Source: a virus
Lineage: Duplodnaviria > Caudoviricetes
DNA length: 64,000 bases
Direction: 5' to 3' (one strand)
Virus record (IMG/VR): IMGVR_UViG_3300042477_000769
A program made the translations under genes and the position numbers. A model generated the notes under the pieces. The model saw only the letters and a program-made list of their open reading frames with translations. It did no database searches and was not told where the DNA came from. Shown one piece after another: positions 14,076-63,050 of the stretch (the stretch's first letter is position 1; each line of letters begins with the position of its first letter).

Positions 14076-16427
14076 ATGAAATTACGTAATTTATTAGATC
14101 AAATGCAATCTATATCTAATAAAATCGGCTCGTCTCAGCCGATGATCTGTGGAGGTACGCCTCGGGATCAGTATATGGAAAGATTAGATCATATTGCTGA
14201 TCTAGATATTACTACTGGAGATAAAAAAGTACAATTTTTAGCGCAAGAATTTGGTAATGCATTAGCTAAACAATATGATGTCACGACTAAAATTCATGAA
14301 GATGGTCACGGAACTATTTATTTAGGTGATTTTAAAATTGATTTTTCTTCCAATTTTAATATTCCTAATATTGATAATATTTTGATTAAACAAGGTATTA
14401 CTAAGCCAACTAGTATGCAAAAAGAAATGTTTAGTCGAGATTTTACTTGTAATTCATTATTATTATCCTTAGATCTAAAAAATGTCATCGATCCTACTTA
14501 TCACGGATTACAAGATATTGATCAGAAAATAATTAGAACTTGTTTATCTCCAGAAATTACTTTATTAACTAATAAAAATAGAGTGGTTCGTGCTATTTAT
14601 TTGGCCTCCAAATTAGATTTTAATATTGATCCCAATATTATCAGCTATGTGGCGGCACATCCAGAGTCAGTAAAAATCTCGACTCCTAAATCTTTAACAG
14701 AAAAACTAAATTCTGCTTTTGAATTTAATCCGGAACGTGCCGCTTTTTATCTGACTCAGATGAATTTGTGGAATTATGTTCCTATTACTCCTGTTATGAG
14801 ACCATTTTTTATGAAAAAAAATACCACCGTTTCTTATATTTTATCTAAATATGCTGCCATTTCATCCGTGTCAGAAGCCAAACAATTGTTTGGTTTATTG
14901 GAAAATTTTACAGAAGAAGATGTAAAAAAGAAATATAAAGAATTAGTGGTGAAAAATTATCCCGATGTTAATCCTGTTAATGGTCATGAGAAAATGTTAG
15001 ATATTACTCAAGCTAAAGAAATACTATTAAAAAGCCTGACTACTCCAGAGCCTGTATTATTAAAGGAAGAAGAACCATGGAGACATTCTTATCATACGCC
15101 TGTCTCTGAATATATGGATGATGAAAAATGGGAATATTATACCAATCCAGAAATATTTAAACAATATCAAAAAGATTTTGAAGCTGAGCAAAATTATCAT
15201 CAATATGATGAGGATAGTTCAAGATTAAGAGAACAAGCAGAAGAAGATAGAATTTATAATCTCAGAGATAATATCGTCTCTATTTTAGAAAAAGTTAACC
15301 CGAATAAATTAGTAGAAGATTTTGGAGTGGATCTCGATGCCACTTCAATAAAAGAACTAGGTTTAGGTAATTTAGCCTCAAATCAAGATGGAATAGAATT
15401 AAGTGATTTAATTTCAGCGGCTATTCTCGAGATCATCTATTATGACCATCCTAAATATTTACCTAAATTATTAGAATTAGATTATTTTAAAAATGCAGTT
15501 CGTTCAAATAATTATATGAACAAGAACATGTCAGACTTGCTAAACAAGATAGATAATGAAAATATTAATAAATTATTTTTGACCAGTAAACTTTCTCTTA
15601 AAGATTTATCTAATTATCGAGATGAGCAGGGTATTATTGATGTGTTATTAAATAATCAAAATAAAGTAGTTACTGATTTATTGCAAGCTAAAAATCCACT
15701 AGATATGGTAGTTTGGTTTAGCGCTCCAGTGTTAAAAAATGTTTCTTACATCTTGCTAGACCAAGAACAAACTAAGCCGATAGTAAAATTATTAGATTTG
15801 GTTAAGAGACAATTAAACCAAAAAATAAAAACAGCTTATTTTCAAGGTGGGGGAGGAGTCAACGAACCCACTCCGAAAAAACGAAAATATAAAATAGATC
15901 CGGCCGAAGTAGTCCAGCCGAGATTTGAAGAGCCGTTTTATCGTAATTATGATCTATATAATGTTCCTGGTAAATATGGTCCGGGCACTAGAAAAAATCC
16001 TAAAAACTTAAAAGGCAAATATAAAGCTAAAAAAACTGCTCGAACTAAAGTCTTATCTAATCTCTTAAAAGTAGCCATTGACTTTCCTTCTGATAACCAA
16101 GTTAATCCAGAATTAATTACTGGTCAGCAAAATAACTTAATGGAATATCTTAATCCGGCCGGAGGATATTTAGATAAATATCTTCCTGATAATGATTTGG
16201 AAGATAAAGACCCCACCAAATTAAACTTTGGTCGAGATTATGCCGATCAACCCACAGGGCCTAAAATCGATAATATTGAAAAATTATTAGAACAATATTT
16301 GCCGACTGATTTGTATGGATTACCAGATGGAGTCGATGTCACAGAAGAAGAATTAGACCAACCTAATGATATTAATCCATTTTATGGTACCTTAGGCCCT
16401 AATAGTTTGATTCATCAACGCTACTAA
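14076..16427 (+). CDS. Divergent CCA/poly(A)-polymerase-family nucleotidyltransferase fused to a J-domain-like segment and a long C-terminal extension
   Basis: Motif A GGTPRD..DLD; motif B EMFSRDFT; motif D region TNKNRVVRA; J-like EAKQLFGL..EDVKKKYKELVVKNYPD..EKMLDITQAKEIL. Confidence 0.75.
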   Translation: MKLRNLLDQMQSISNKIGSSQPMICGGTPRDQYMERLDHIADLDITTGDKKVQFLAQEFGNALAKQYDVTTKIHEDGHGTIYLGDFKIDFSSNFNIPNIDNILIKQGITKPTSMQKEMFSRDFTCNSLLLSLDLKNVIDPTYHGLQDIDQKIIRTCLSPEITLLTNKNRVVRAIYLASKLDFNIDPNIISYVAAHPESVKISTPKSLTEKLNSAFEFNPERAAFYLTQMNLWNYVPITPVMRPFFMKKNTTVSYILSKYAAISSVSEAKQLFGLLENFTEEDVKKKYKELVVKNYPDVNPVNGHEKMLDITQAKEILLKSLTTPEPVLLKEEEPWRHSYHTPVSEYMDDEKWEYYTNPEIFKQYQKDFEAEQNYHQYDEDSSRLREQAEEDRIYNLRDNIVSILEKVNPNKLVEDFGVDLDATSIKELGLGNLASNQDGIELSDLISAAILEIIYYDHPKYLPKLLELDYFKNAVRSNNYMNKNMSDLLNKIDNENINKLFLTSKLSLKDLSNYRDEQGIIDVLLNNQNKVVTDLLQAKNPLDMVVWFSAPVLKNVSYILLDQEQTKPIVKLLDLVKRQLNQKIKTAYFQGGGGVNEPTPKKRKYKIDPAEVVQPRFEEPFYRNYDLYNVPGKYGPGTRKNPKNLKGKYKAKKTARTKVLSNLLKVAIDFPSDNQVNPELITGQQNNLMEYLNPAGGYLDKYLPDNDLEDKDPTKLNFGRDYADQPTGPKIDNIEKLLEQYLPTDLYGLPDGVDVTEEELDQPNDINPFYGTLGPNSLIHQRY

Positions 16428-19438: not shown

Positions 19439-20152
19439 ATGGGCAAGCCAAAATCCAACACGGCAGAATTTATTGCTAAAAGCAATAAAAAACATCGTCA
19501 TTTTTATGATTATCAACAAGTGGATTATATTACTCAACATATTCCAGTCGTTATCAAGTGTCCTATTCACGGATTTTTTACTCAAAAACCAAAAGCACAT
19601 TTACGGTATGGATGTAATAAGTGTGCCCAAGAAGTAAGATTAAAATCAATTCGAAAAACTAGTGAAGAGATATTATCTCAGTGTTTCTTAGTGCATCAAG
19701 ATCGATATGATTATTCTAAGATGCAATTTCTTTCGACTCGCCAAAAAGTAGAAATAATTTGCAAAATCCATGGGCCGTTTTGGCAGACGATGCATGATCA
19801 TTTGGCCGGCAAAGGCTGTGCTAAATGCATTAATAAAGTATCCAAAAACGAAACTCGATGGTTAGATTTAATGAGCATCGACCCAAAATTTAGAAATTAT
19901 AAAATTAACTTAAGCAAGTCATATTATGTCGATGGATATGATCCAATGACTAAAACTATTTACGAGTTCAATGGTGATTATTGGCATGGTAATCCTAGTA
20001 AATTTTGTCCGGATAAAATTAATAATCATACTAAATGTAGTTTTGGTCAATTATATCAACAAACTTTAGCTAAAGAAGTAGAGTTTAAAAAACATGGCTA
20101 TAAAGTTATATCTATTTGGGAAGTTGATTTTGTGAATATTTATGGCCGATGA
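19439..20152 (+). CDS. Zinc-ribbon PD-(D/E)xK-type putative homing endonuclease (paralog of 16443..17552)
   Basis: IKCPIHG, IICKIHG, YVDGYDPMTKTIYEFNGDYWHGNP, SIWE. Confidence 0.8.
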   Translation: MGKPKSNTAEFIAKSNKKHRHFYDYQQVDYITQHIPVVIKCPIHGFFTQKPKAHLRYGCNKCAQEVRLKSIRKTSEEILSQCFLVHQDRYDYSKMQFLSTRQKVEIICKIHGPFWQTMHDHLAGKGCAKCINKVSKNETRWLDLMSIDPKFRNYKINLSKSYYVDGYDPMTKTIYEFNGDYWHGNPSKFCPDKINNHTKCSFGQLYQQTLAKEVEFKKHGYKVISIWEVDFVNIYGR

Positions 20153-22472
20153 TAGTTTATTTTTAAAATTAAAGAATCAATTGATGATGTTAGATCCGGT
20201 AGTCTTTGTGGAATCTAACCTGACATTAGATGGCAAGCCTTTTAGATTGCGAGGGAATGGATATCGACCCTTTGCGGAGATTTATCGGTATATTGGGATT
20301 AAGGCGTTGGAGCCAAATTCGAAGCCGATCATTATCGTGAAAGGTAGACAAGTGGGCGCCACCACCATGGCCTCCGCCCTAGAAATGTACTTCATGGGCT
20401 CCGGCATTTTTGGCACCGGCAGCAAGCCTCCGGTTCGAATTATTCATGCCTTTCCCCAATTAGAATTAGCGGCAGCCTACTCTAAAACCAAATTAAATCA
20501 AATTATTTCTTCTTCGGTCCCATTACCATCAGATCCCAATAATAAGTCATTAAAGCCCAAAGCTTATATGCAATCGTTATTGGATCAATCTACTTCCACT
20601 AATGATTCGTTACATTTTAAGCAATTTGTAGGTGGTAATCATTTATGGATTGAGTCTGTGGGTTTAGATGGTGATAGAGTAATGGGACGCAGTGCGGATA
20701 TTATCTTCTTTGATGAATGTTTTCCGTATAATCAAAAAATAGCAACTAATCAAGGTAAAAAATCTATTGGTCAATTATATGATTTATTTACCAATAATCA
20801 AAATGTTCCATTAGTTTTAACTTTTAATTTAGAAAATGAAAATTTTGAATACAAAAAAATTGTTAATGTCTTTAATCGTGGAGATAAAAAATTAGTTAAT
20901 ATTAAATTAAGTGGAAGAAAAATTTCATGTACTGATAATCATCGGTTTCTGACTGAATTTGGCTGGAAAGAAATAAAAGATATTCCTATTGGAACATTAA
21001 TTAAAAGCTACGATGATACTTATAAAAAAGTTAGTTGGTTAGTTTTAGATAGCATTGAATATTCGAATGAGACAAAAACAGTCTATGATATTGAAGTAGA
21101 AGATAATCATAATTTTATTTTGGCGCCAAATAAAAATGGAAAGCATCAAGGTGGTCCGATAGTTCATAATTGCCAGAAAACTACTAGTATTGCCATTGGA
21201 AATTCTCTTAAAACTTTAACAACAGCCAAATATGGTAAACCGTCTAAAGGAGTTCAAGTTTATTTTGGAACTCCTAGAAGAAAAGGCTCTGATTTCCATA
21301 AAATGTGGCAAACTTCTTCTCAACAATATTATTATTTAGGATGTGGAAAATGTAAAGAATATTTTCCTCTATATACTCCTGGATCAGATGATTGGAAGAA
21401 TATTTGGATTTATGGATTTATGGTTAAATGCCCACATTGTGGTCATGAGCAAAATAAATTAGAAGCGGCAGAAAGAGGTAAATGGACTGCCTTACGAGAC
21501 CCAGATGATCCGGATTGCAAAATGGTTGGGTTCCATATCAATCAATTATACATGCCTATGTTTAGTCGAGAAGATATGGATAATGAAATGCCGGGGAATC
21601 ATCCTATTAATACTGAACGTGTCTTCATGAACGAAGTTATGGGAGAATTCTTTCAAGGAGATTCTAGTCCCATTACTCCAGAAGAAATTAAAGAGAAATG
21701 TGGAGATGACCGTAAATTTAGTGCTCGTATTGCTCCTTCTCGAAATGGTACCGATCAACAAATCGTAGTCTTAGGTATCGATTATGGTGCTAGAGCAGAC
21801 GTAGAACAATTAGCCGATATTGAAAATTCTAAATCTAAAGGTCAATCCTATAGTACAGCAGTGGTGTTATCGGCTAAAGGCCCAGGATTATTACATATTG
21901 AATTTGCCACTAAATTTAAAAGAAACGATCCGGAAAGCAAAAAGGGTCTGATTGAACAAATTATTAGACAATATGGTGTGAATTTAGCGATTGGTGATAT
22001 TGGATATTCTAATGATTTTTCTCAAACGTTACATCAAATTTATGGGGACAAATATATTGTCTCTCGTGCTCATCCAAAAGTCAATAATCATATCAAATAT
22101 AGTATAGATGCTTTTCCCAAAGAATTAGTCTTTGAAAGAGATTATTATATTGGAGAATTATATGAACAATTAAAGAATGGGATGATTAAGTTTCCTTTTG
22201 GAGACTATGAAAAAATTGCTTGGTTAATTGATCATTGTTGTAGTATGGAAATTAAGCCCTCTATTTCTCGAATGGGGGCGGATCCTCAAATCCATTATGT
22301 CAAGGGCGGAACTCCCAATGACGGATTTATGGCCTTATTGAATGCCTATTTGGCATATAAATTTATCATTACTAAGGGATTTACTAATAATAATCCTATT
22401 TTGCAAAAATCTAATTTTTCTAATATGAATAAGCCATTAGTAACTGGTGGTTATATTTCTCGTAAATTCTGA
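20142..22472 (+). CDS. terL: Terminase large subunit (lambda GpA-like), intein-containing
   Basis: Walker A KGRQVGATT; Walker B IIFFDE; YFGTP; Zn clusters CGKC and CPHC; nuclease VLGIDYG..AIGDIGY..PND. Confidence 0.92.
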   Translation: MADDSLFLKLKNQLMMLDPVVFVESNLTLDGKPFRLRGNGYRPFAEIYRYIGIKALEPNSKPIIIVKGRQVGATTMASALEMYFMGSGIFGTGSKPPVRIIHAFPQLELAAAYSKTKLNQIISSSVPLPSDPNNKSLKPKAYMQSLLDQSTSTNDSLHFKQFVGGNHLWIESVGLDGDRVMGRSADIIFFDECFPYNQKIATNQGKKSIGQLYDLFTNNQNVPLVLTFNLENENFEYKKIVNVFNRGDKKLVNIKLSGRKISCTDNHRFLTEFGWKEIKDIPIGTLIKSYDDTYKKVSWLVLDSIEYSNETKTVYDIEVEDNHNFILAPNKNGKHQGGPIVHNCQKTTSIAIGNSLKTLTTAKYGKPSKGVQVYFGTPRRKGSDFHKMWQTSSQQYYYLGCGKCKEYFPLYTPGSDDWKNIWIYGFMVKCPHCGHEQNKLEAAERGKWTALRDPDDPDCKMVGFHINQLYMPMFSREDMDNEMPGNHPINTERVFMNEVMGEFFQGDSSPITPEEIKEKCGDDRKFSARIAPSRNGTDQQIVVLGIDYGARADVEQLADIENSKSKGQSYSTAVVLSAKGPGLLHIEFATKFKRNDPESKKGLIEQIIRQYGVNLAIGDIGYSNDFSQTLHQIYGDKYIVSRAHPKVNNHIKYSIDAFPKELVFERDYYIGELYEQLKNGMIKFPFGDYEKIAWLIDHCCSMEIKPSISRMGADPQIHYVKGGTPNDGFMALLNAYLAYKFIITKGFTNNNPILQKSNFSNMNKPLVTGGYISRKF
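20718..21170 (+). mobile_element. Mini-intein (Hint only, 151 aa) directly after Walker B of TerL
   Basis: Begins CFPYNQKI; block B CTDNHRF; block F VYDIEVEDNHNF; ends IVHN; +1 Cys; splicing restores FFDE-CQ. Confidence 0.92.
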
Positions 22473-22527: not shown

Positions 22528-25500
22528 ATGGCTAAAAATAAATTAACACGTTGGGATGGCCCTTCTAAATCGGAGCAATATTTAGCATCTCGATCTGATG
22601 TACCGCAAGTTAGCGCTTTGATGGCAAAATCAGTGTCACAGTTTAGACGAGATGGAATCTCAAATGAAGTCAATCAAGGATTTTTTCGTGATGGTTCGGG
22701 CCCGTCAGCCTCAGAAGATGGTAGTACGGTTAATGGAAGGGTAGTATCTTCAGTTGGTCAAAATAAATTTGCTCAAGTAGTTAGCTCTTCTGGAGGAAAC
22801 TATCGTGGTGGTAACGGAGATACTGTTAAACAATCTCCAGAAGTTTATTCTCCATTATGGTTGAATTCTAATTTAAACTTACCACGAGATAGAGCCACTA
22901 TTAATGCTTGGTGTCGCAGCTTTTATGCACTAAATCCCTTTGTCCATAATGCTATTAATTTGCATAGCACTTATCCTATTAGTAAATTAAATATTACTTG
23001 TCCCAATAAAGAAATTGAAAGATTCTTCAATGATATGATTGAAGAAATTGATTTAATGAATGTCTGCGTTCAAATTGCCCAAGAATATTGGTTATTGGGA
23101 GAGTCTTTCGTCTATTCAGAATTAGATGAAAGTCGTGGCAAATGGAGCCGGTTATTAATTCAAAATCCAGATTATATGATTGTCAAACGTACTGTAGTGG
23201 CGAATGAGCCCATCATTATGTTACGCCCGGATGAAAATTTAAAGAAAATTATCTTTTCTAATCGACCTACTGATATTGAGCAAAGAAAACAATTAAATAG
23301 TCACATTATTAATTCCGTTAAACGTGGCGAGAATATTCCTTTAGATAATTTTCATGTCTCTCATTTGGCGAGAAGAATTAGTCCGTATGAAATCCGAGGG
23401 ACGGGGTTGCCGGTGTGTATTTTCCGGCAGCTGATGTTGTTTGATAAGTTACGCGAGTGCTACTCCGCTGACACCGAAGTTCTCACCAATCAAGGTTTTA
23501 AAAAAATCACCGACCTTTTACAAGTCAATAATACAGTCAATCATAAACTAGCTCGTATTAAACTAGCCTTAGTAGATGATAATAACCAAGTTAATTATGA
23601 TTATCCTGAAAATTTATCTATTGAGCAATATTCTGGTCAAATATTTTCGGTGACTGGTAAAAAAGTAGATTTAGCAGTTTTACCAACTAGTTGGTTAGAT
23701 GTAGCTAAAACTGATAATAACTTTCAAAAGGTGATGGCCTCTTCTTTATTAGAAAAGAAATCCTATTATCAATTTAATTCTCAAGTCCAATTTAATAATA
23801 CTGACCATCCGGCCACCGTGGTAGTCAATGGCAAGCATATTCCAACCGAATTATACTTAAAAGTATTAGGCTATTTGGTCTCCGAAGGATGCATTTATGC
23901 TAATGATCAAAATAATAGACATGATGCGTCTATCTCGGTCAGTCAATTAACTTCTAGTGATTGTTATCAAGAGATGAGAGAGTCTTTTGATGTATTTGCC
24001 CAATTATTAAATAAAAAGGCTAATCATACTGTTAAAGTAATTGGTTCTGGATATTCTGCTCATACTCCCAAAGAAAAATGGCAAGTAGTGATTCATGGCA
24101 AAGATCTCGTTGACCATTTTAAAAAAGAAATTGGTACTAATCAAAATACCTTATCGGCTCATAAATGTTTGCCTCGATGGGTATTAAATTTAACTCCCGA
24201 ATTAATGAATACATTATTGCAGGCATTAGTTAAAGGAGATGGCTCAGAACGAGTAGCAAATAAGTCGACTAGTTTTAAATATTCTACCATTTCTAAGCAA
24301 TTAGCTGATGATGTATATGAATTAGTATTTAAATTAGGGTTTGCGCCGAATCTGTGTATTTCTACTGCGACTAAAACCAATAACAAATCAGTGACAGAAT
24401 ATATTGTCATGTGGTCGACTACTGAGTATGGCAATCATCCATATGTCTGTTCTTTTGATCACAAGAATAAATTTGGTGGTGCGACTATTGCTCTTAATGA
24501 GTATACTGGTAAATTATGGAATATTGCGACCAATAAAAAAGTTATTTCTAGAAGAAATGGTAAAATCACAGTCCAATATGCTAATTCTTATGATGAGCAC
24601 ACTGAAATTTTAACAGAAGAAGGCTTTAAATATTTACACCAATTAGAGAAAGATAATTACATTAATGGCATCATTGTCAATGAGGATCAATCATTATCGT
24701 TATTAACTTTGAAAGATGATATTAAAATTGCTTGTGTTAATCCTAAGACTCAAGCCATGGAATATCATACGCCTATTGAAATGCATATGTCTCACTATGA
24801 TGGAGATATGATTCATTTTCAAGGTAAAAAAGTAGATTGCTTAGTTACTCCCAATCACAAAATGTGGGTCAATCCAATTATTAACAATCAAGAAATGGGA
24901 TATGCTAAAATTCCAGCTCGAGAATTATCCGTTGGACATTCTTATAAATTTAATAATGTTATTGATTGGGCCGGTAATAATGTAGAGTCGGTAACAGTCA
25001 TTGATAAACAAGTTCCGATTGAGGTATATTTAAAATTTATTGGCAATGTGATTAGTGAGGGTTGTGTTGATAGTAGTTTGAATAAAAAAACCAATCAACA
25101 TAGAAATAGGGTGGTAGTTACTCAATTAACGCAATCTTTATATTATCGCAATATGAGAGAGAATATTGAAAATTTTGCTCAGATTTTCGATAAAAAAGTA
25201 TCTACCTCCATTAAAGTTAAAGGCGGAGGCTTCTCGGCTCATTGTCCCAAAGAACAATGGAGCGGAACTATTTATTATAATTTGCTCAATAAGTACTTAA
25301 TTGAGACTATTGGGATCGATGGTAAGTGTGATTCTAAAAACAAACGAATTCCTAGATTTGTTTTAGATTTATCTCCAGATAAATTGCAAATTATTTTAGA
25401 CGCTTTATTGGATGGTGATGGTTCTAGAAAGAAATTAAATAACTCGCAATCGTCTTATAAGTATTCTACTGCCTCTAAACAATTAGCAGATGATGTTTAT

Positions 25501-26601
25501 GAGTTAGTTTATAAATTAGGATATGTGCCTATTTTACAAGCTTTCAAGAGAAAGACTTGTACTGAATATGTAATTCGATGGTCTGATACTAATAAAGGGT
25601 TAACACCTAAAATTAATGGTAGCGGTAAAAATCAAAAAGGCGCTTCTTTTAACAAAGTAAATTATCATGGTTTGGTGTGGTGTTTTGAGGTACCGACGGG
25701 ATTGTTTGTGACGAGAAGAAATGGGAAGGTGACGGTGCAGGGGAATTCGAAGTACGCCCAGGCGGATAATATGGTAAACCCCCTCACCCTGGTCAAAATC
25801 GGCACCGACGCTGCCGACGGCCTTCACCCCACCTTTGCCGACCTAGAAGCCTGGCGCAATGTCTTTGAGCAAGCTCAATATGATAAGGATTTTAAGATTT
25901 TTACTCATTCTGGCGTAGCGGTAGAACGAGTGGGTTATGGTCAAGGCATTTATGACATTTCTGGAGATATTACCCAAATTATTAAAGAGATTTATGTTGG
26001 GTTACAAGTACCGCCGGTATTAATGGATGGTGGCGCGGATACCACTTATGCTAATGGTAGTGTGGCCTTGGATGTATTAAAGCAACGCTATATGCAATTC
26101 CGAAACATGCTATCTACTTGGTTAAAGAGAAAAATCTTCGCTCCTATTTCTAAGATCCAGGGATTTTATGATTATTCTCATGGAGAAAAGCAATTAATTG
26201 TGCCCGAAGTAGATTGGAATCATATGGCATTATTTGATGCTGGTGATTATATTAATACTTTGTTAACCTTAACGCAAGGCGAAGGAGACGCTAAACGTGC
26301 GTCATTGCATACGCTGTATCGTTCTTTGGGTCTAGAGTTTGAAGATGAAATTAGAAAGATGAGAAAAGAATCGATTCAAAGTGCGATCGCTGTAAAAGAG
26401 AAAGAGTCTTTAGCGGCTATGGATTTGAATGCCTTACGAGCCTTGGATGAAGAGGATGAAATTCCAGAAATAGAAAAAGATCCTAATGAGGCTGGTGGTA
26501 GTGAGGGAGCTTTACCAGGACAAGATGCTGGTGGAGGACTTCCTGGATTAGAGAAGGGTTCGGGAGAAGAACCTCCAGTCCCACCTCCACCTGGAGCGTA
26601 A
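22528..26601 (+). CDS. Portal protein containing two tandem inteins (about 594 aa after splicing)
   Basis: Position after terL; portal-like segments NPFVHNAINLHS, QEYWLLGESFV..QNPDYM, SPYEIRGTGL, LQVPPVLMDGG..YANGSVAL; SD AGGA upstream. Confidence 0.85.
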   Translation: MAKNKLTRWDGPSKSEQYLASRSDVPQVSALMAKSVSQFRRDGISNEVNQGFFRDGSGPSASEDGSTVNGRVVSSVGQNKFAQVVSSSGGNYRGGNGDTVKQSPEVYSPLWLNSNLNLPRDRATINAWCRSFYALNPFVHNAINLHSTYPISKLNITCPNKEIERFFNDMIEEIDLMNVCVQIAQEYWLLGESFVYSELDESRGKWSRLLIQNPDYMIVKRTVVANEPIIMLRPDENLKKIIFSNRPTDIEQRKQLNSHIINSVKRGENIPLDNFHVSHLARRISPYEIRGTGLPVCIFRQLMLFDKLRECYSADTEVLTNQGFKKITDLLQVNNTVNHKLARIKLALVDDNNQVNYDYPENLSIEQYSGQIFSVTGKKVDLAVLPTSWLDVAKTDNNFQKVMASSLLEKKSYYQFNSQVQFNNTDHPATVVVNGKHIPTELYLKVLGYLVSEGCIYANDQNNRHDASISVSQLTSSDCYQEMRESFDVFAQLLNKKANHTVKVIGSGYSAHTPKEKWQVVIHGKDLVDHFKKEIGTNQNTLSAHKCLPRWVLNLTPELMNTLLQALVKGDGSERVANKSTSFKYSTISKQLADDVYELVFKLGFAPNLCISTATKTNNKSVTEYIVMWSTTEYGNHPYVCSFDHKNKFGGATIALNEYTGKLWNIATNKKVISRRNGKITVQYANSYDEHTEILTEEGFKYLHQLEKDNYINGIIVNEDQSLSLLTLKDDIKIACVNPKTQAMEYHTPIEMHMSHYDGDMIHFQGKKVDCLVTPNHKMWVNPIINNQEMGYAKIPARELSVGHSYKFNNVIDWAGNNVESVTVIDKQVPIEVYLKFIGNVISEGCVDSSLNKKTNQHRNRVVVTQLTQSLYYRNMRENIENFAQIFDKKVSTSIKVKGGGFSAHCPKEQWSGTIYYNLLNKYLIETIGIDGKCDSKNKRIPRFVLDLSPDKLQIILDALLDGDGSRKKLNNSQSSYKYSTASKQLADDVYELVYKLGYVPILQAFKRKTCTEYVIRWSDTNKGLTPKINGSGKNQKGASFNKVNYHGLVWCFEVPTGLFVTRRNGKVTVQGNSKYAQADNMVNPLTLVKIGTDAADGLHPTFADLEAWRNVFEQAQYDKDFKIFTHSGVAVERVGYGQGIYDISGDITQIIKEIYVGLQVPPVLMDGGADTTYANGSVALDVLKQRYMQFRNMLSTWLKRKIFAPISKIQGFYDYSHGEKQLIVPEVDWNHMALFDAGDYINTLLTLTQGEGDAKRASLHTLYRSLGLEFEDEIRKMRKESIQSAIAVKEKESLAAMDLNALRALDEEDEIPEIEKDPNEAGGSEGALPGQDAGGGLPGLEKGSGEEPPVPPPPGA
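23458..24585 (+). mobile_element. Portal intein 1 (376 aa) with LAGLIDADG domain; splicing motifs degenerate
   Basis: Starts CYSADTEVLT; LGYLVSEG and QALVKGDG; ends KITVQYAN; block B reads VLPTSW with no TxxH. Confidence 0.8.
24586..25746 (+). mobile_element. Portal intein 2 (387 aa) with LAGLIDADG domain
   Basis: Starts SYDEHTEILT; block B VTPNH; IGNVISEG and DALLDGDG; block F VWCFEVPTGLFV; ends TVQGN; +1 Ser. Confidence 0.88.
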
Positions 26602-49832: not shown

Positions 49833-51218
49833 ATGTGTGGTATTGTATTAAGTAATTTTCTGTCCCTAGAGGAAGTGTCGGATAAATTATCGATTATTTT
49901 GCATCGGGGACCGGATGGTCATCGGGTGGAGACAATTAATAATTTTACTGTTGGACATTGTCGATTGGCCATTCAAGGCAGATCCTCGTCTTATGATCAG
50001 CCGTTTACTAAAAACGGATTAACTATTGCTTATAATGGAGAATTATGGAATAATAGCGTTAATAGTTTATCCCAAGAATTAGGAATTACCGAGGAGGGCA
50101 TTTCAGATACCGAATTATTTTTATTAGGATTTGAGAAATATGGCCCGGCCATTTTTCAGCAGGTAGACGGCGTATTTGGAGTGGCTATTATTTCTGGAGA
50201 CACAGTGTTCGTGGCTCGTGATTATATTGGAGAAATTCCAATTTATTATTATTGGGAAGACCAAAAGTTATTAGTAGCCAGCGAATTAAAGGTATTTGCT
50301 GGATTACCCTTATCCAAAGTCCAGTTATTACTGCCGGGGCATTATTTAAAGATAAATTCTACTCTAGAAGTAGTTAAATACTATTCCTTACCGATGACTG
50401 AAGTGTCAGATTCTAAAGAAGAAATAATCTCTAAATTTAGAGATTATGTAGTACAAGGTGTGCAAAAGAGAATTCCAAAGGAAGTAGATTACACGGTATT
50501 ATTATCTGGAGGAATAGATTCGACTATTATTGCAGCGTGCTTAAAGCAAGTCAATGCTAATTTAGAAGCATTTACCATTCATTTGGATGTTAATAAAGAC
50601 AAAAAAGTAAAGAATAATGATTTATATTTTGCTAGATTAGCGGCGCAGCATTTAGGAATTAAGTTACATGAGGTGATTATTACTGAGGAACAGGTCCTCT
50701 ATTATTTAGAGGAGACCATTAGAGTGATTGAGGATAAGTCATGGACTCAAGTATCTTCTGGATTACCTCATTTATTATTGGGAAAAGCGATTAAGAACAC
50801 TAATTTTAAGGTAGTATTTTCTGGATCTGGGAGTGATGAAATTTTTGGTTCCTATCCGGCGCAAAAAAGATGGCAATGGCAAGATAATCAATATGACAAA
50901 GCCAGGAAAAATTTAGTCTTAAATGTTCATAAAAACAATACTATTAGAGAAAATAAATGTTTAATGGCCTCATCTCTAGAGATTAGGAGTCCCTTTTTGG
51001 ACCAAAAATTTTTAGAATATGCGGTTAATATTCCAATTCAGTATCGATTTGACAATAAAAAAATGAAACCTATGTTGAGATATGCTTTTCAAGACCTCTT
51101 GACTCCGGAGTTAGCCTGGCGAGAAAAAATTTGCGAAGGCGATGGAGTGGGAATCGAAAACATTATTAAAGCTAAAAAAGACGAAATCAAGAGAATTTAT
51201 GACAAAATTTTTATTTAA
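49833..51218 (+). CDS. asnB: AsnB-like Ntn glutamine amidotransferase / ATP pyrophosphatase
   Basis: MCGIV (Cys2), HRGPD, GHCRLAI, YNGE, LLSGGIDS, SGSGSDEIFGSY, RSPFLD, KPMLR; SD GAGG. Confidence 0.85.
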   Translation: MCGIVLSNFLSLEEVSDKLSIILHRGPDGHRVETINNFTVGHCRLAIQGRSSSYDQPFTKNGLTIAYNGELWNNSVNSLSQELGITEEGISDTELFLLGFEKYGPAIFQQVDGVFGVAIISGDTVFVARDYIGEIPIYYYWEDQKLLVASELKVFAGLPLSKVQLLLPGHYLKINSTLEVVKYYSLPMTEVSDSKEEIISKFRDYVVQGVQKRIPKEVDYTVLLSGGIDSTIIAACLKQVNANLEAFTIHLDVNKDKKVKNNDLYFARLAAQHLGIKLHEVIITEEQVLYYLEETIRVIEDKSWTQVSSGLPHLLLGKAIKNTNFKVVFSGSGSDEIFGSYPAQKRWQWQDNQYDKARKNLVLNVHKNNTIRENKCLMASSLEIRSPFLDQKFLEYAVNIPIQYRFDNKKMKPMLRYAFQDLLTPELAWREKICEGDGVGIENIIKAKKDEIKRIYDKIFI

Positions 51219-55157: not shown

Positions 55158-56128
55158 TGCTAGCAGACAACGCTTCCCCAGTATCCGAATTTTCGGCAGT
55201 TATCTCTACGCCTCGTAGATTAACGCTAGAGAACGTCTCTCAAAAATTAAAAATTAAACAAATTTCATTAGTGGATTCTATTTTTTTAGGTTTAAAAGTT
55301 AAACATAATTTTCAATGTTTAGCCTGTCACTATCAGTGGACTACTCGTCTGGATGAGGTTTTATACAAATCAGGCTGCCTGAAATGTAGCGGATCGATGC
55401 GAAAAACTCAAGATGAAATAAATGATATTTTAAAGCCTAGGTTTATTGTTGCATTAGAGCAGCACAAAAACAATCAAGATAAAATTAATTTCCAATGTAT
55501 CAAAGAAAATTGTGGGTTTGTTTGGAAATCTTGTGTTGATAAAATTGTCAATGCCAAACATGGTTGTCATAAATGTGCTAATCATCTCAATAGGACTAAA
55601 GAAGAAATTAACGAATTATTGCAATCTAGATCCATTGAATTAATAGATAATCATCAAAAAACGAATGAGCGTCGTTGGTTTAAATGTCATCAATGTCAAC
55701 ATGTCTGGAAAACATTAGTAGCCAATGTTTTGTTTAAAACTGGTTGCCCAGCATGTAAAAATAAAAACGAAAAGTTGTTTAAACAAGAATTATGTCAAAA
55801 TAATTTTAATTTTTATTATCAAGTTAAGCTATCAGATTTAGATACCAGCATTGATAAAAAATATGTAGTAGATTTTTATTTACCAGAATTTAAGACTATT
55901 ATTGAATATAATGGTAAGCAACACTATCAGCCCGTTAAGTTTAATAACATTTCTGACGAACTAGCTATGAAAAATTTTCAACAACAACAAATAAGGGATG
56001 AGTTTGTTAAAAGCTGGTGTAACAATAATAATATCAAATTAATTCAAGTAGATGGTCGTTATATATTCAATAATAAAATAAAAGAATATGTAGCTAAGTT
56101 AGGTAATCAGTTGAGCGGTAATGAGTAA
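55157..56128 (+). CDS. Zinc-ribbon-repeat endonuclease (DUF559/PD-(D/E)xK-like C-terminus)
   Basis: Three FxC..CxxxW......GC..C repeats; [31 protein letters not shown]. Confidence 0.75.
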
Positions 56129-59100
56129 AATAAATGCCAATCAAATAAAGGGCGTCCCTACTGGCTCCGGAGGCGGAGGAGGCACCGGTCCAACCGGCCC
56201 CCAAGGGCCTCAAGGATCTCCTGGCGCTACTGGACCTCAAGGATTACAAGGTTCTCCCGGTGTTACAGGACCAATTGGGCCTATTGGACCTACTGGCCCT
56301 GCCGGAGGACCTATTGGTCCAACAGGCCCCCAAGGCCCTCAAGGTTCTCCTGGCGTTACTGGACCACAAGGAGCTAATGGTGCTCCAGGAGCTACTGGCC
56401 CTCAAGGTGCGACTGGATTACCTGGACCCACAGGTCCAGCAGGCGCAGCTGGTCAGCCTGGCGCAACAGGTCCTGCAGGAGCCACGGGCCCACAAGGACC
56501 AACTGGAACAATTGGCCCACAAGGACCAACTGGTCCTCAAGGAGCTAATGGTGCTCCGGGCGCTACAGGGCCTCAAGGTGCGACTGGTTTACCAGGGCCT
56601 ACAGGAGCGACTGGCCCAGCTGGAGCCACAGGCCCTCAAGGTGCTACTGGAAGTATTGGTCCACAAGGCCCCACCGGAAGTATTGGATCAACGGGACCTA
56701 CAGGCCCAGCAGGAGCCACTGGTCCAGCCGGAGCTACTGGTCCTCAAGGAGCGACTGGTGTACCAGGACCTACCGGTGCCACAGGACCAGCTGGAGCTAT
56801 AGGTCCACAAGGTCCTACTGGAAGTATTGGCCCACAAGGTCCAACTGGATTACCAGGAACTACTGGAGCGACAGGTCCAGCCGGAGCCACTGGTCCGGCC
56901 GGAGCTACTGGACCTCAAGGCCCAACTGGCTTACCAGGGACTACCGGTGCCACAGGCCCTGCAGGAGCCACTGGCCCACAAGGACCAACAGGATCAATTG
57001 GTCCACAAGGACCGACAGGTAGTATTGGATCAACAGGACCTACTGGTCCAGCTGGAGCGACTGGTGCACCAGGCCCAACTGGTAGTATTGGACCTCAAGG
57101 CCCAACAGGCAGTATTGGACCTCAAGGAGCGACTGGACCACAAGGAGCTACTGGACCACAAGGTATACCAGGTCCTACTGGAGCTACAGGTCCTGCCGGA
57201 GCAATAGGTCCACAAGGACCAACTGGCAGCGTTGGGCCACAAGGACCGACAGGATCTATTGGTTCTACTGGACCAACTGGACCTCAAGGTTCTACAGGAA
57301 GTATTGGGCCTCAAGGCGCAACTGGAAGTATTGGACCACAAGGTCCAACGGGTAGTATTGGAACGACTGGCCCAACTGGACCTCAAGGCCCAACTGGACA
57401 AAGAGGTGCGACTGGTTTACCAGGACCCACAGGAGCTACTGGTCCTGCAGGAGCAGCAGGTCCACAAGGACCTACCGGAAGTATTGGTCCACAAGGCCCA
57501 ACTGGAAGTGTTGGCCCAACTGGATCAATAGGACCTCAAGGACCCACAGGCAGTATTGGACCACAAGGCCCAACGGGCAGTATTGGCCCACAAGGGCCAA
57601 CTGGTCCACAAGGAGCTACAGGATCAATTGGACCACAAGGCCCAACTGGAAGTGTTGGTCCAACTGGATCAATAGGCCCTCAAGGACCTACTGGAAGTAT
57701 TGGACCGCAAGGTCCAACTGGAAGTATTGGTTCTACGGGTCCAACCGGACCACAAGGACCACAAGGGTCACAAGGAGCAACAGGACTACAAGGACCTACC
57801 GGAAGTATTGGACCACAAGGTCCAACTGGTAGTATTGGAACTACAGGGCCAACAGGACCTCAAGGACCAACTGGACAAAGAGGTGCGACTGGATTACCAG
57901 GAACTACTGGTGCAACTGGCCCTGCAGGAGCCACGGGACCACAAGGACCTACTGGAAGTATTGGTCCACAAGGACCGACAGGTAGTATTGGTTCAACTGG
58001 ATCAATAGGTCCACAAGGGCCTACCGGAAGTATTGGTCCACAAGGTCCTACCGGAAGTATTGGTCCACAAGGCCCAACTGGCCCTCAAGGAGCTACAGGA
58101 CAACAAGGAGTAACAGGATTACCAGGACCGACCGGAGCAATTGGTCCTGCAGGAGCCACTGGACCACAAGGATCCACAGGTAGTATAGGCCCACAAGGAC
58201 CTACCGGATCTATTGGTTCAACAGGAGCTACAGGACCACAAGGAGCTACAGGTAGTATTGGGCCTCAAGGACCGACAGGATCAATTGGATCAACTGGACC
58301 TACTGGGCCTCAAGGGCTTCAAGGGGCTACCGGTCCACAAGGATCTACCGGATCAATTGGGCCTCAAGGTCCAACTGGAAGCATTGGTTCTACAGGACCT
58401 CAAGGATCAACTGGACCTCAAGGATCGATCGGGCCTGCAGGAGCTACTGGACCTCAAGGGCCAACAGGATCAATTGGACCACAAGGACCAACAGGCAGCA
58501 TTGGATCGACTGGACCTACTGGTCCACAAGGAGTTCAAGGTGCTACTGGACCAATTGGACCTCAAGGAACTACAGGTCCTCAAGGAGCTACAGGCCCTAT
58601 TGGCCCACAAGGACCAACAGGAGCTATTGGTCCACAAGGGCCTACTGGAAGTATTGGAACTACCGGACCAACTGGGCCTCAAGGACCAACTGGACAAAGA
58701 GGCGCAACTGGTTTGCCTGGCGCTACTGGCCCACAAGGCCCAACAGGCAGTATTGGTTCCACTGGACCAACAGGCCCTCAAGGACCACAAGGTATTCAAG
58801 GCGCTACAGGATCAATTGGACCTCAAGGATCTACTGGTCCTCAAGGCTCTACAGGAAGTATTGGACCACAAGGCCCAACAGGACCTCAAGGCTCTACTGG
58901 AAGTATTGGTCCACAAGGACCGACAGGTAGTATTGGATCTACTGGGCCAACAGGACCGCAAGGGCCTCAAGGCGTTCAAGGACCTACGGGTAGTATTGGT
59001 CCTCAAGGCCCAACAGGCAGTATCGGATCTACAGGCCCAACAGGACCTCAAGGACCACAAGGACCTACAGGCAGTATTGGCCCACAAGGGCCGACAGGTA

Positions 59101-62100: not shown

Positions 62101-63050
62101 CAAATGGTCGAGTAAATTTTGTTCATGATTCTAGTTCACGAGTAAGAACTGCCTTAGCTACTGGCGTTGGAACACTAATTAGATATGCTCCCACAGCAAT
62201 GATATCTTGGGCAGATTCAGTTTATTATAATGATCAAACTGTTTCACCTCCTATTATTAGCGGTATTAGTTCAGGACCCTCAGTTCAAGCCGCTATTGAT
62301 CAGCTAAAAAATAGATTTATTACCGGCCCCACTGGACCTGCCGGAGCCACGGGTCCCCAAGGAGCCACGGGTCCCCAAGGAGCTACAGGACCAACTGGAG
62401 CAATTGGTCCACAAGGCGCCACTGGAGTACCTGGAGTGGCCGGAGCCTCTGCGGTTTGGATTTTAGAAGAAGGCGCCACTATTGGATTATTTAATACTAT
62501 TAATTTAGGTGGTGGATTACACGCCTCTACCGGACCAGCAGTAAATACCGTTACTATTAATCCATTGCATGATTTTGCCATTCTCGGCAGAACGGGCTCT
62601 CCCTATATTACTAGCGGGGTAGCTTCAGGAGCTATGATTCAATGGAATTATCAGATAATAGGACCCACTGGTGGTGATTTTAGTCATACGACTATTGCTA
62701 CCGCAGCTGGATGGATTACCTTCCAAAAAGGCGGTTGGTATGAAATTGATTACTCTTTAAACTTTACTGGCCCAGTACAAGCTGCAGGCGGCTTGATGTC
62801 TAGTTGTTTTATTGGAGCTACTGGAGGGAATGGTCGATTTGGATTTGGTTCGGGAACTATTATTCCACAATCGGTGGCAATTGGTGTGGTACCCTCAGGT
62901 TGGTTAAGTCAAAGCTTTATGACCTATATTCCTTCTGGTAGGAGTATGCAAACTTACATTCAACGATATCCTACCGTATTAATTTCCGGAATCAGCGGCA
63001 TTGCTATTTCACCTACAGGCACTAAATTATCTATTAAAAGAATCGGATAA
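56121..63050 (+). CDS. Collagen-like virion fibre with LamG/ConA-like domain and C1q/BclA-like C-terminal domain
   Basis: About 470 Gly-X-Y triplets; LamG-like [33 protein letters not shown]; C-terminal [18 protein letters not shown]. Confidence 0.85.
56181..60452 (+). repeat. Collagen Gly-X-Y repeat region ([18 protein letters not shown])
   Basis: 9-nt periodicity across about 4.27 kb. Confidence 0.95.

What the first reader, a model, noticed from the sequence alone, without database searches (positions are those of the whole stretch)
23458..25746. Two paralogous inteins back-to-back at one portal site, with no extein between them and the first apparently degenerate
Seen: ..DKLRE | C(intein 1)..VQYAN | S(intein 2)..VQGN | SKYAQ... 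The first residue of intein 2 doubles as the +1 nucleophile of intein 1, and removing both restores LRE-SKYAQ. Both keep two LAGLIDADG motifs. Intein 1 has lost block B TxxH (VLPTSW versus VTPNH) and block F (WNIATNKK versus WCFEVPTG), and has an extra residue before the terminal Asn. Established: the block B His drives the N-terminal acyl shift, and portal is essential. Inference: either ordered two-step splicing, or excision as one 763-aa composite using Cys1 of intein 1 and the terminal Asn of intein 2, with cross-complementing Hint halves.
Basis: partly seen in the sequence, partly recalled or inferred. Interest (0 to 1): 0.8.

Follow-up and report, generated by a model that had tools for sequence, protein, structure and literature searches.

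The report
Two fused inteins sharing one active site
A giant-phage portal gene carries two self-splicing inteins fused head to tail, each apparently missing what the other keeps, so they probably leave the protein as a single 763-residue unit; I found no report of such an arrangement.

Summary
ORF 22528-26601 encodes a 1357-aa portal. It holds intein T1 (aa 311-686) directly followed by intein T2 (aa 687-1073); they are 37% identical. Removing both restores FDKLRE|SKYAQ, which is exactly what 11 homologues with this site empty read.

Six more tandems exist in independent metagenome assemblies. In them the internal junction has decayed: T1 ends YAN, GQG, GDG, NCNE or NE, and T2 starts A, A, S, Y or I (one has a displaced Cys).

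Of 72 columns at least 90% conserved in 133 single inteins, T2 copies lose only Cys1 and part of one His. T1 copies lose 21, all in Hint blocks B, F and G. T1 keeps block A with Cys1 and its whole endonuclease.

Two predictors place T1's Cys1 hairpin inside T2's Hint pocket, next to T2's block B Thr, block F, terminal Asn and Ser+1.

Best reading: an obligate composite intein, excised as one unit through a hybrid, hairpin-swapped active site. The element moves between portal lineages, and the window's T2 body was later replaced by recombination. Nothing has been shown biochemically. I rate it a new variant of a known kind, of high interest.

The parts
22528..26601 (+). Portal precursor ORF, 1357 aa including both inteins (stop codon 26599-26601)
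   Evidence: PHROG 16240 portal on both exteins
22528..23457 (+). N-extein (aa 1-310), ends FDKLRE
   Evidence: 79-87% identical to the closest homologues
23458..24585 (+). T1, the first intein copy (aa 311-686). It keeps Cys1, block A and its endonuclease; Hint blocks B, F and G are degenerate
23458..23517 (+). T1 block A hairpin (CYSADTEVLT...), which carries the only N-terminal nucleophile conserved in all tandems. Predicted to dock in T2's Hint
   Evidence: 6 of 6 conserved block A columns kept; contacts Cys1-T2 Thr88 and T1 residues 3-5 with T2 362-365; solved-intein residue 1 superposes on model residue 41
23668..23703 (+). T1 degenerate block B (VLPTSW in place of VTPNH)
   Evidence: predicted to pair with T2's displaced hairpin
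23851..23892 (+). T1 LAGLIDADG motif 1 (…GYLVSEGC), acidic residue kept
   Evidence: I-DmoI Z 15.4 on model residues 160-366
24214..24249 (+). T1 LAGLIDADG motif 2 (…LVKGDGSE)
24511..24564 (+). T1 degenerate block F (LWNIATNKK; the Cys at block F position 4 is replaced by Asn, with a one-residue deletion)
24571..24600 (+). Internal T1|T2 junction VQYAN|SYDEH. It is one residue longer than the family's QGN. The Ser codon TCT is one step from Cys TGT and from the Ala GCT/GCA of P0002/P0003
24586..25746 (+). T2, the second intein copy (aa 687-1073). It has all Hint blocks except the family's Cys1, and an intact endonuclease
   Evidence: AF2 pLDDT 91; TliVMA, PI-PfuI and PI-SceI fold matches
24586..24780 (+). 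Part of T2 (about the first 55-65 codons) that still resembles the T2 of P0002/P0003. Downstream of it the body is P0010-like (recombination mosaic)
   Evidence: tree
24835..24870 (+). T2 block B (VTPNH: Thr88, His91 of T2)
25024..25065 (+). T2 LAGLIDADG motif 1
25393..25428 (+). T2 LAGLIDADG motif 2 (PF14528 best stretch)
25672..25728 (+). T2 block F (VWCFEVPTGLF…RRNGK, Cys at position 4)
25729..25749 (+). T2 block G and the C-terminal splice junction VQGN|S
25747..26598 (+). C-extein (aa 1074-1357), starts SKYAQADNM

Best explanation
T1 and T2 form one obligate composite intein of 763 aa.

Origin (inferred): two different alleles of the intein that occupies portal site a (a type-I lineage for T1, a type-II lineage for T2) came to lie head to tail.

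What each copy kept (shown by comparison): T1 kept only its block A hairpin with Cys1, plus its LAGLIDADG endonuclease. T2 kept blocks B, F and G, the terminal Asn and its endonuclease, but lost its own Cys1.

Geometry (predicted, not shown): the two N-terminal hairpins swap within the one chain.
- T1's hairpin carries the LRE|Cys311 junction into T2's Hint pocket, beside T2's Thr774/His777, Cys1052, Asn1073 and Ser1074.
- T2's nucleophile-poor hairpin fills the dead Hint of T1. The 1-2 extra junction residues (YAN, GQG, GDG, NCNE) would act as the closing turn.

Chemistry (inferred): ordinary class 1 steps at the outer junctions only.
1. N-S acyl shift at Cys311.
2. Transfer of the N-extein to Ser1074.
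3. Cyclisation of Asn1073.
4. O-N shift, giving LRE-SKYAQ and a free two-endonuclease composite.

Loss of T2's Cys1 would also prevent a dead-end reaction in which T2 leaves alone and strands an unspliceable T1 in the portal.

The element is mobile as a unit. In the window's lineage the T2 body was later replaced by a P0010-like allele, by recombination downstream of about codon 55 of T2.
For: 1. The architecture recurs: 7 tandems (P0001, 2, 3, 4, 18, 117, 126) in independent assemblies.

2. The internal junction has decayed. T1 never ends in the family's GN (YAN x3, GQG, GDG, NCNE, NE). T2 never has the standard Cys1 (S, A, A, S, Y, I; P0126 has a displaced Cys). By contrast 102 of 103 site-a and 30 of 30 site-b single inteins start with Cys, and 101 of 103 site-a single inteins end in GN.

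3. The losses are complementary. Of 72 columns at least 90% conserved in 133 single inteins, T2 copies lose 2 (Cys1 in 6 of 6). T1 copies lose 21: 20 of 32 in non-A Hint columns, against 1 of 34 in the endonuclease (p = 1e-7) and 0 of 6 in block A (p = 0.007).

4. Constraint mirrors this (mean pairwise identity):
- T1: block A .71, rest of Hint-N .43, Hint-C .55.
- Single inteins: .77, .72, .83.
- T2: block A .58, against .78 in single inteins.

5. AF2 model of the precursor (pLDDT 85.6). Every solved intein superposes on model residues 39/41 to 803/806. That runs from T1's Cys1 (chain residue 1 maps to model residue 41) to T2's Asn. Examples: 1mi8 134 of 141 aa at rmsd 2.2 A; 6zgq_B 151 of 154 aa at 2.3 A.

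6. Independent ESMFold2 run with T1 and T2 as separate chains. Score 0.63, best control 0.00. That mark was reached by 58 of 80 solved complexes and 2 of 110 mismatched pairs; these counts hold only roughly because my own alignments were used. At least 85% of contacts were shared between runs, and partner pLDDT was at least 80. Contacts: T1 Cys1 with T2 Thr88; T1 residues 3-5 with T2 362-365 and 379; T2 residues 3-5 with T1 residues 73, 351-352 and 367; T2 386-388 lie in the interface.

7. Mobility, hence function. The T1 copies of five proteins form a clade (SH-aLRT 99), yet their exteins are not one clade (AU p = 1.4e-11). P0004's extein is 90% identical to single-intein P0023, and P0018's is 86% identical to P0054.

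8. All T1 copies lack the roughly 25-30 aa loop that follows block A in single inteins. Loop shortening is what induced domain swapping in an engineered Npu DnaE intein (PMC8175363, citing Aranko 2013).
Against: - There are no biochemical data.
- The window's own junction still reads Asn|Ser, so independent reactions are not formally excluded here.
- T1 copies of P0018 and P0117 keep the block B His.
- P0126's T2 has a Cys next to position 1.
- In the AF2 alignment (A3) all single inteins aligned to the T2 columns, with N-extein flanks adjoining them. This could pull the N-junction towards T2.
- pTM of the whole AF2 model is only 0.56.
- The complex-prediction pass may partly reflect the predictor's memory of split or domain-swapped inteins.
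- T2's own block A (apart from residue 1) is still fairly conserved, which a fully displaced strand need not be.
- Five of the seven T1 copies share ancestry, so the number of independent observations is small.
Confidence: 0.62

Rival explanations
1. Composite excision without a hairpin swap. Each copy folds on its own. The two pockets lie side by side because T1's C-terminus is bonded to T2's N-terminus. T1's decayed Hint merely presents Cys311, and Ser1074 in T2's pocket attacks across the gap.
For: It fits the same comparative data: junction decay and complementary loss. T2's own block A stays fairly conserved. The overall AF2 pTM of 0.56 leaves domain packing uncertain.
Against: Nothing would then activate the LRE|Cys bond, because T1 lacks the block B Thr and His and the Cys at block F position 4. 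Both predictors put T1's Cys1 at position 1 of the Hint that ends in T2's Asn. T2's block A is relaxed relative to single inteins (.58 against .78).
Confidence: 0.13
2. T2 leaves alone, and T1 stays in the mature portal as a fixed, dead insertion. T2 would use either its Ser1 or a class-3-like attack by the invariant Cys at block F position 4.
For: The Cys at block F position 4 is invariant in the family. The best small structural and profile match is a class 3 intein, AceL NrdHF 6zgq. Four of six T2 copies lack a residue-1 nucleophile, as class 3 inteins do (PMC2807308). T1 has lost most splicing residues.
Against: The class 3 triplet is not met: Met, Cys, Gln where Trp, Cys, Thr is required (PMC2807308). 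Single inteins of the family keep Cys1 in 132 of 133, so the block F Cys alone does not suffice. T1's block A with Cys1 is conserved 6 of 6 while the rest of its Hint decays. The site lies in the near-invariant FDKLRE|SK[YF]AQ motif, where a 376-aa insert is unlikely to be tolerated.
Confidence: 0.12
3. Two ordinary inteins that each splice on their own, in either order. Ser687 would serve as T1's +1 nucleophile and as T2's residue 1.
For: In the window itself all four formal junction residues are present: Cys311, Asn686, Ser687 and Asn1073|Ser1074.
Against: T1 lacks the block B Thr and His and the block F Cys. Its orthologues in P0002 and P0003 (61-63% identical by BLASTP, same degenerate blocks) are followed by Ala. 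Those in P0004 and P0117 lack the terminal Asn. A family tuned to Cys1 carries Ser here only in tandem copies.
Confidence: 0.08
4. A non-functional gene or an assembly artefact.
For: The window comes from a single assembly, and no whole genome is held for it.
Against: There are seven independent assemblies with intact reading frames. No second portal lies in the window. No long repeats could mislead an assembler. The endonuclease domains are conserved. The terminase-portal gene order is kept.
Confidence: 0.03

Closest known systems
Endonuclease-containing class 1 inteins (TliVMA 7qsu/7qss, PI-PfuI 1dq3, PI-SceI 1vde, PI-PkoII 2cw7)
   Same: Hint fold with a nested two-motif LAGLIDADG endonuclease. 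Inserted before a Ser in a conserved motif of an essential protein. Foldseek E 1e-16 for T2; VIA-align Z 28 for the composite.
   Different: Those are single, self-sufficient units. Here two units are fused with no extein between them, and neither has a complete set of splicing residues.
Host proteins with several inteins at neighbouring sites (haloarchaeal MCM, PMC10643990; relatives here with sites a and b 42 aa apart; other huge-phage portals with inteins 4-7 aa apart)
   Same: More than one intein in one gene, and competition between alleles at close homing sites.
   Different: Those inteins are separated by extein residues and keep intact GN|S...C junctions. Each can splice alone.
Engineered domain-swapped inteins and intein-mediated protein alternative splicing (Npu DnaE variant 4KLS, Aranko et al. 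2013 as cited in PMC8175363; Pho PolII swapped dimer, PMC8175363)
   Same: A Hint active site built from segments of two intein copies. Loop shortening promotes the swap.
   Different: Those are intermolecular, between identical copies, and engineered or crystallographic. Here the swap would be intramolecular, natural, between diverged copies, and obligatory.
Split inteins with a very short N-piece, and three-piece split inteins (bioRxiv 10.1101/2023.01.30.526203; S1-type and atypical split inteins, from my own knowledge)
   Same: The block A hairpin with the nucleophile can be supplied apart from the rest of the Hint.
   Different: Those pieces are separate polypeptides. Here the piece is tethered through a whole decayed intein of about 355 aa.
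Class 3 inteins (mycobacteriophage Bethlehem DnaB, PMC2807308; AceL NrdHF, PMC7891396)
   Same: Cys at block F position 4, phage setting, and no residue-1 nucleophile in most T2 copies.
   Different: The Trp-Cys-Thr triplet is not met (Met-Cys-Gln here). The family's single members keep Cys1 almost without exception.

Membership tests
Intein (Hint-domain protein-splicing element) | In-frame insertion whose removal restores a contiguous, conserved host sequence | tested here: met
   The PHROG portal profile is continuous across the site. 11 homologues with the site empty read FDKLRE SKYAQ.
Intein (Hint-domain protein-splicing element) | Hint fold | tested here: met
   T2 model pLDDT 91, Foldseek E 1e-16 to TliVMA. 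Composite model: mini-inteins superpose at rmsd 2.2-2.4 A over 134-151 residues. These are predicted structures only.
Intein (Hint-domain protein-splicing element) | Nucleophile (Cys/Ser/Thr) at intein position 1 | tested here: met
   Met for the composite and for T1 (Cys311; Cys in 6 of 6 T1 copies with a known start). T2 has Ser687 in the window, but Ala, Ala, Tyr and Ile in relatives.
Intein (Hint-domain protein-splicing element) | Block B Thr-x-x-His | tested here: met
   Met by T2 (VTPNH, 6 of 6). Not met by T1 (VLPTSW; Thr lost in 7 of 7 copies, His lost in 5 of 7).
Intein (Hint-domain protein-splicing element) | C-terminal Asn followed by Cys/Ser/Thr | tested here: met
   Met by T2 and by the composite (QGN|S, 6 of 6). 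At T1's end Asn|Ser is present in the window but is not kept in relatives (YAN|A, GQG|S, GDG|I).
Intein (Hint-domain protein-splicing element) | Each intein is an autonomous splicing unit | tested here: not met
   T1 lacks 20 of 32 conserved non-A Hint columns. T2 copies lack the family's Cys1. This is inferred from sequence; splicing itself was not assayed.
Intein (Hint-domain protein-splicing element) | Protein splicing observed | not testable with these tools
   Needs expression of the precursor and Western blot or mass spectrometry.
LAGLIDADG homing endonuclease (two-motif, monomeric) | Two LAGLIDADG motifs with their acidic residues, and the alpha-beta-beta-alpha-beta-beta-alpha fold | tested here: met
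   PF14528 E 1e-15. Glu and Asp columns kept 6 of 6 in both copies, and 33 of 34 endonuclease columns kept in T1. I-DmoI Z about 15 on model residues 160-366 and 551-755.
LAGLIDADG homing endonuclease (two-motif, monomeric) | Site-specific DNA cleavage and homing | not testable with these tools
   Indirect only: the intein and extein trees conflict (AU p = 1.4e-11).
Class 3 inteins | Trp at block B position 12, Cys at block F position 4, Thr at block G position 5 (PMC2807308) | tested here: not met
   The family has Met, Cys, Gln at these positions (VTPNHKMW; VWCFEV; IQGN).
Class 3 inteins | No N-terminal nucleophile | tested here: inconclusive
   True of 4 of 6 T2 copies. Not true of the window's T2 (Ser) or of 132 of 133 single family members (Cys).
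Phage portal protein | Similarity to portal families and position next to the large terminase gene | tested here: met
   PHROG 16240 E 8e-29 and 2e-19. The large terminase gene (GpA_ATPase) lies directly upstream here and in L001, L002 and L004, and one or two small genes upstream in L005.
Domain-swapped / split-intein-like assembly | Catalytic Hint built from non-adjacent segments of two intein copies | tested here: inconclusive
   Predicted by AF2 with VIA-align and by ESMFold2 (score 0.63 against 0.00 for the best control). These are models only, with the alignment-bias and memory caveats stated.

The most novel reading that the evidence does not exclude
T1-type copies are inteins of inteins.
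- Their still-intact endonuclease would target alleles already occupied by a type-II intein, cutting at the N-extein|T2 junction rather than at the empty site.
- They would insert in front of T2's Cys1.
- They would then shed their own splicing chemistry and borrow T2's pocket by donating only the Cys1 hairpin.
- The same outcome would have arisen more than once: P0126's and P0117's first copies fall outside the main T1 clade (AU test for one clade, p = 0.047).

That would make hairpin-swapped hybrid active sites the general fate of any two inteins that land back to back.
Probability: 0.15. Interest if true: 0.9.

Novelty: new variant of a known kind. Interest (0 to 1): 0.82.

Why it matters
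Inteins are treated as autonomous units, each with a full set of splicing blocks. Here two units appear to have split the job between them.

- Mechanism: this would be the first natural case of a splicing pocket assembled from two intein copies in one chain. The block A hairpin is tethered about 375 residues away from the rest of the pocket.
- Evolution: two selfish elements competing for one homing site seem to have become mutually dependent through complementary decay (subfunctionalisation, or a constructive-neutral ratchet). They still move between phage lineages and still exchange parts.
- Annotation: intein finders that demand every block in every intein will call T1 a pseudo-intein, or will miss the junction.
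- Engineering: it is a natural template for hairpin-complemented or three-piece inteins that tolerate a very large internal cargo.
- Testability: all predictions can be checked with one expression construct and about six point mutants in E. coli.

Tried and rejected
- Megablast of the gene against GenBank phages: no match.
- phmmer of T2 alone against PDB sequences: nothing. Only the family profile reached VMA inteins, PI-PkoII and AceL NrdHF.
- No whole genome is held for the window. The 470-kb record behind L004 could not be searched for a second portal.
- A second protein search scored on aa 311-760 and an IMG/VR scan found no tandem beyond the seven.
- The representative search added only P0126. 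P0193 and others turned out to have extein spacers.
- Alignments A2 and A3 were meant to place type-I single inteins on T1 but put all of them on T2. T1 therefore had only 5 rows in the AF2 job, and a bias caveat applies.
- Class 3 membership: rejected on the triplet.
- Tandem duplication as the origin: rejected. The two copies belong to different intein clades, each with single-intein relatives.
- Assembly artefact: rejected.
- Full-text searches for tandem, adjacent, nested, double, contiguous or composite inteins found no natural zero-extein case. The library lacks most subscription journals, so absence from it is weak evidence.
- dN/dS was not attempted, because synonymous sites are saturated at 50-65% amino-acid identity.

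Full report
**What is there**

The window comes from an AT-rich phage region (36% G+C) with nearly all genes on the + strand. ORF 22528-26601 encodes 1357 aa. Residues 1-310 and 1074-1357 match portal families; for PHROG 16240 the E-values are 8e-29 and 2e-19, and the profile positions run on across the gap. The large terminase gene lies just upstream. Close relatives sit on contigs of 330-470 kb, so this is a huge-phage lineage.

- T1, aa 311-686 (nt 23458-24585).
- T2, aa 687-1073 (nt 24586-25746).

They are 37% identical over their whole length (E 2e-72). T2 modelled alone (pLDDT 91) matches the endonuclease-bearing inteins TliVMA, PI-PfuI and PI-SceI (Foldseek E 1e-16 to 1e-11). A family profile reaches VMA inteins, PI-PkoII and the AceL NrdHF intein by sequence.

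**The family and its sites**

A search of 5.8 billion proteins returned 289 portal homologues, of which I dissected the best 120.
- Most are about 1000 aa, with one intein at the same place (site a, FDKLRE|S).
- About thirty carry an intein at a second place 42 residues downstream (site b), either alone or together with site a.
- Eleven proteins with only site b occupied show site a empty. They read FDKLRE SKYAQADNM, exactly what removal of T1 and T2 restores.
- Single inteins of this family are very uniform: Cys1 in 102 of 103 (site a) and 30 of 30 (site b), VTPNH in block B, VWCFEVPTGLF in block F, and QGN|S at the end.

**The tandem recurs, and its inner junction is dead in relatives**

Back-to-back copies at site a occur in P0002, P0003, P0004 (which also has a site-b intein, so three in all), P0018, and the partial P0117 and P0126. 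These come from different JGI, Logan and ENA samples.

| Protein | Internal junction |
|---|---|
| Window (P0001) | QYAN\|S |
| P0002, P0003 | QYAN\|A |
| P0004 | QGQG\|S |
| P0117 | QGDG\|I |
| P0018 | QNCNE\|Y |
| P0126 | QNE\|C, with a one-residue deletion after the Cys |

So T1 never keeps the family's GN, and T2 never keeps a standard Cys1. With Ala, Tyr or Ile after it, or without a terminal Asn, T1 cannot splice on its own. T2 cannot start an N-S shift at its own first residue either.

At the DNA level the window's junction is the P0002/P0003 junction with one base changed (TCT Ser against GCT/GCA Ala).

**Complementary loss**

I took the 72 alignment columns that are at least 90% conserved in 133 single inteins.
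- The six T2 copies have lost two: Cys1 (all six) and one His (partly).
- The six T1 copies have lost 21. Nine lie in the N-terminal Hint part around block B and eleven in blocks F and G. Only one of 34 lies in the endonuclease domain, and none of six in block A.
- Non-A Hint against endonuclease: p = 1e-7. Block A against the rest of Hint: p = 0.007.

Mean pairwise identity says the same:

| Set | Block A | Rest of Hint-N | Endonuclease | Hint-C |
|---|---|---|---|---|
| T1 copies | .71 | .43 | .62 | .55 |
| Neighbouring type-I single inteins | .77 | .72 | .65 | .83 |
| T2 copies | .58 | .71 | .59 | .86 |
| Neighbouring type-II single inteins | .78 | .69 | .58 | .83 |

T2 is relaxed only in block A. 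Each copy has therefore kept what the other lost. All T1 copies also lack a loop of about 25-30 residues that follows block A in single inteins and in T2. That loop is the low-confidence stretch 21-45 of the T2 model.

**Predicted geometry**

Two predictions agree.

1. AF2 model of aa 271-1113 (pLDDT 85.6, pTM 0.56; T1 = model residues 41-416, T2 = 417-803). Every solved intein superposes on a range that starts at model residue 39 or 41 and ends at 803-806.
   - This includes small inteins aligned almost completely: Ssp DnaB 1mi8 (134 of 141 residues, rmsd 2.2 A), AceL NrdHF 6zgq_B (151 of 154, 2.3 A) and NrdJ-1 8ubs (144 of 150, 2.4 A).
   - Chains numbered from residue 1 start at model residue 41, which is T1's Cys1.
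   - One Hint domain in the model therefore holds both outer junctions.
   - Caveat: in the alignment used, all single inteins fell on the T2 columns, which may bias the model.

2. ESMFold2 with T1 (plus 10 N-extein residues) and T2 (plus 10 C-extein residues) as separate chains. Each had an alignment of complete inteins, which if anything favours closed, unswapped domains.
   - Score 0.63 (runs 0.63, 0.73, 0.63) against 0.00 for the best of three controls. That mark was reached by 58 of 80 solved complexes and 2 of 110 mismatched pairs; the counts hold only roughly because my own alignments were used. The runs shared at least 85% of contacts, and partner pLDDT was at least 80.
   - The contacts describe a reciprocal swap of N-terminal hairpins:
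     - T1 Cys1 touches T2 Thr88 (block B).
     - T1 residues 3-5 touch T2 362-365 (block F) and 379.
     - T1 residues 11-14 touch T2 46-49.
     - T2 residues 3-5 touch T1 residue 73 (the degenerate block B strand) and T1 residues 351-352 and 367.
     - T2 386-388 (Asn and Ser+1) are in the interface.
   - Caveat: split and domain-swapped inteins have been solved, so part of the score may be memory.

Domain swapping of Hint folds, promoted by loop shortening, is established for an engineered Npu DnaE intein (PMC8175363, citing Aranko 2013).

**History**

- The T1 copies of P0001, 2, 3, 4 and 18 form one clade inside the type-I site-a inteins (SH-aLRT 99).
- Their exteins do not form a clade. 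Holding them together costs 578 log-likelihood units (AU p = 1.4e-11). P0004's extein is 90% identical to single-intein P0023, and P0018's is 86% identical to P0054. The element, or intein alleles in general, therefore moves between portal lineages and must work after each move.
- The first copies of P0126 and P0117 fall elsewhere in the intein tree (AU test for a single T1 clade, p = 0.047). A second origin is possible but not shown.
- The six T2 copies are not one clade (p = 3.5e-5). The window's T2 groups with the single inteins P0010, 13, 14 and 15 (SH-aLRT 98).
- The window's T2 is a mosaic. Its first 50 or so codons are closer to the T2 of P0002/P0003 (DNA identity .70-.75 against .58). 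From about codon 60 it is P0010-like (.77-.87). The T2 body was therefore replaced by recombination, while the decayed junction stayed.

**Mechanism proposed**

- Shown by comparison: the tandem is real, recurrent and mobile, and the losses are complementary.
- Predicted: T1's hairpin with Cys311 sits in T2's pocket, and T2's hairpin fills T1's dead Hint.
- Inferred:
  - Class 1 chemistry at the outer junctions only, releasing one 763-aa chain with two endonucleases.
  - The extra junction residues act as the closing turn.
  - T2's Cys1 was lost, or selected against, because T2 leaving alone would strand T1 in the portal.

**Rivals**

The rivals are a side-by-side geometry without a swap, T2-only excision with T1 retained, two autonomous inteins, and an artefact. 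Each is weighed in its own section.

The class 3 route deserves a note. The Cys at block F position 4 is invariant here, and the nearest small structure is a class 3 intein. But the defining Trp-Cys-Thr triplet reads Met-Cys-Gln, and single family members keep Cys1.

**Novelty**

Full-text searches found multi-intein genes, neighbouring inteins that interfere with each other's homing (PMC10643990), engineered swapped or multi-piece inteins, and non-canonical endonuclease layouts in actinophage inteins (bioRxiv 10.1101/2025.01.02.630785). They found no natural pair of inteins with no extein between them, and none with complementary decay. The searchable library is incomplete, so this is 'not found', not 'absent'. 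I rate it a new variant of a known kind, of high interest, and testable with one construct and a handful of mutants.

Noticed in passing
window 20721-21170 (+), inside the large terminase ORF 20142-22472: The terminase carries a 150-aa mini-intein (aa 194-343, C…IVHN|C) right after the Walker B-like FFDE. PF14890 E 1e-13. The intein-free homologue in L001 aligns to aa 2-193 and 344-776. Relatives carry larger endonuclease-bearing inteins in their terminases (L002, L004). Local G+C drops to 0.23-0.26.
   Followed up: partly
window 25870-25872 (portal aa 1115): Site b, a second intein hot spot 42 aa downstream, is empty here and reads VFE-Q-AQYDK. Among 50 homologues without a site-b intein the +1 position is Glu in 37, Ser in only 7, and Gln in 2. 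All 30 occupied alleles have Ser or Cys. This suggests co-conversion of the +1 codon with the intein, or resistant alleles.
   Followed up: partly
window 24586-24780: The window's T2 is a recombinant. Its first 50 or so codons resemble the T2 of P0002/P0003, and the rest resembles the single site-a intein of P0010/13/14 (60% amino-acid identity).
   Followed up: yes
L003 659-6043 (P0004, 1794 aa): This portal has three inteins: the tandem at site a plus a standard intein at site b.
   Followed up: partly
P0126 (ENA, 819 aa, cut at its C-terminus): A tandem whose first copy groups with P0114's single intein rather than with the main T1 clade. It shows the same decay (block B GPES, shortened block F, end QNE). 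Its second copy starts with a Cys displaced by a one-residue deletion. This may be an independent origin.
   Followed up: partly
P0228, P0129, P0170, P0226 (proteins from the representative search): Other multi-intein proteins that carry this intein family (P0228 and P0129 have portal-like exteins; hosts not checked) have inteins only 4-15 extein residues apart (STEA, SGYQ, SDPWAF, SYEWYGA, CVNIDKANVHG). Their GN|S…C junctions are intact. Up to about five intein units occur in one protein.
   Followed up: no
window 56121-63050 (+): A 2309-aa ORF made largely of collagen triple-helix repeats (PF01391, E 2.5e-207), with a weak, sub-threshold match to a concanavalin/laminin-G-like domain (PF13385, E 2e-05). 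Probably a fibre.
   Followed up: no
window 49833-51218 (+) and 14076-16427 (+): A glutamine-dependent asparagine synthase homologue. Separately, a protein that joins a poly(A) polymerase/CCA-adding head domain to a DnaJ domain.
   Followed up: no
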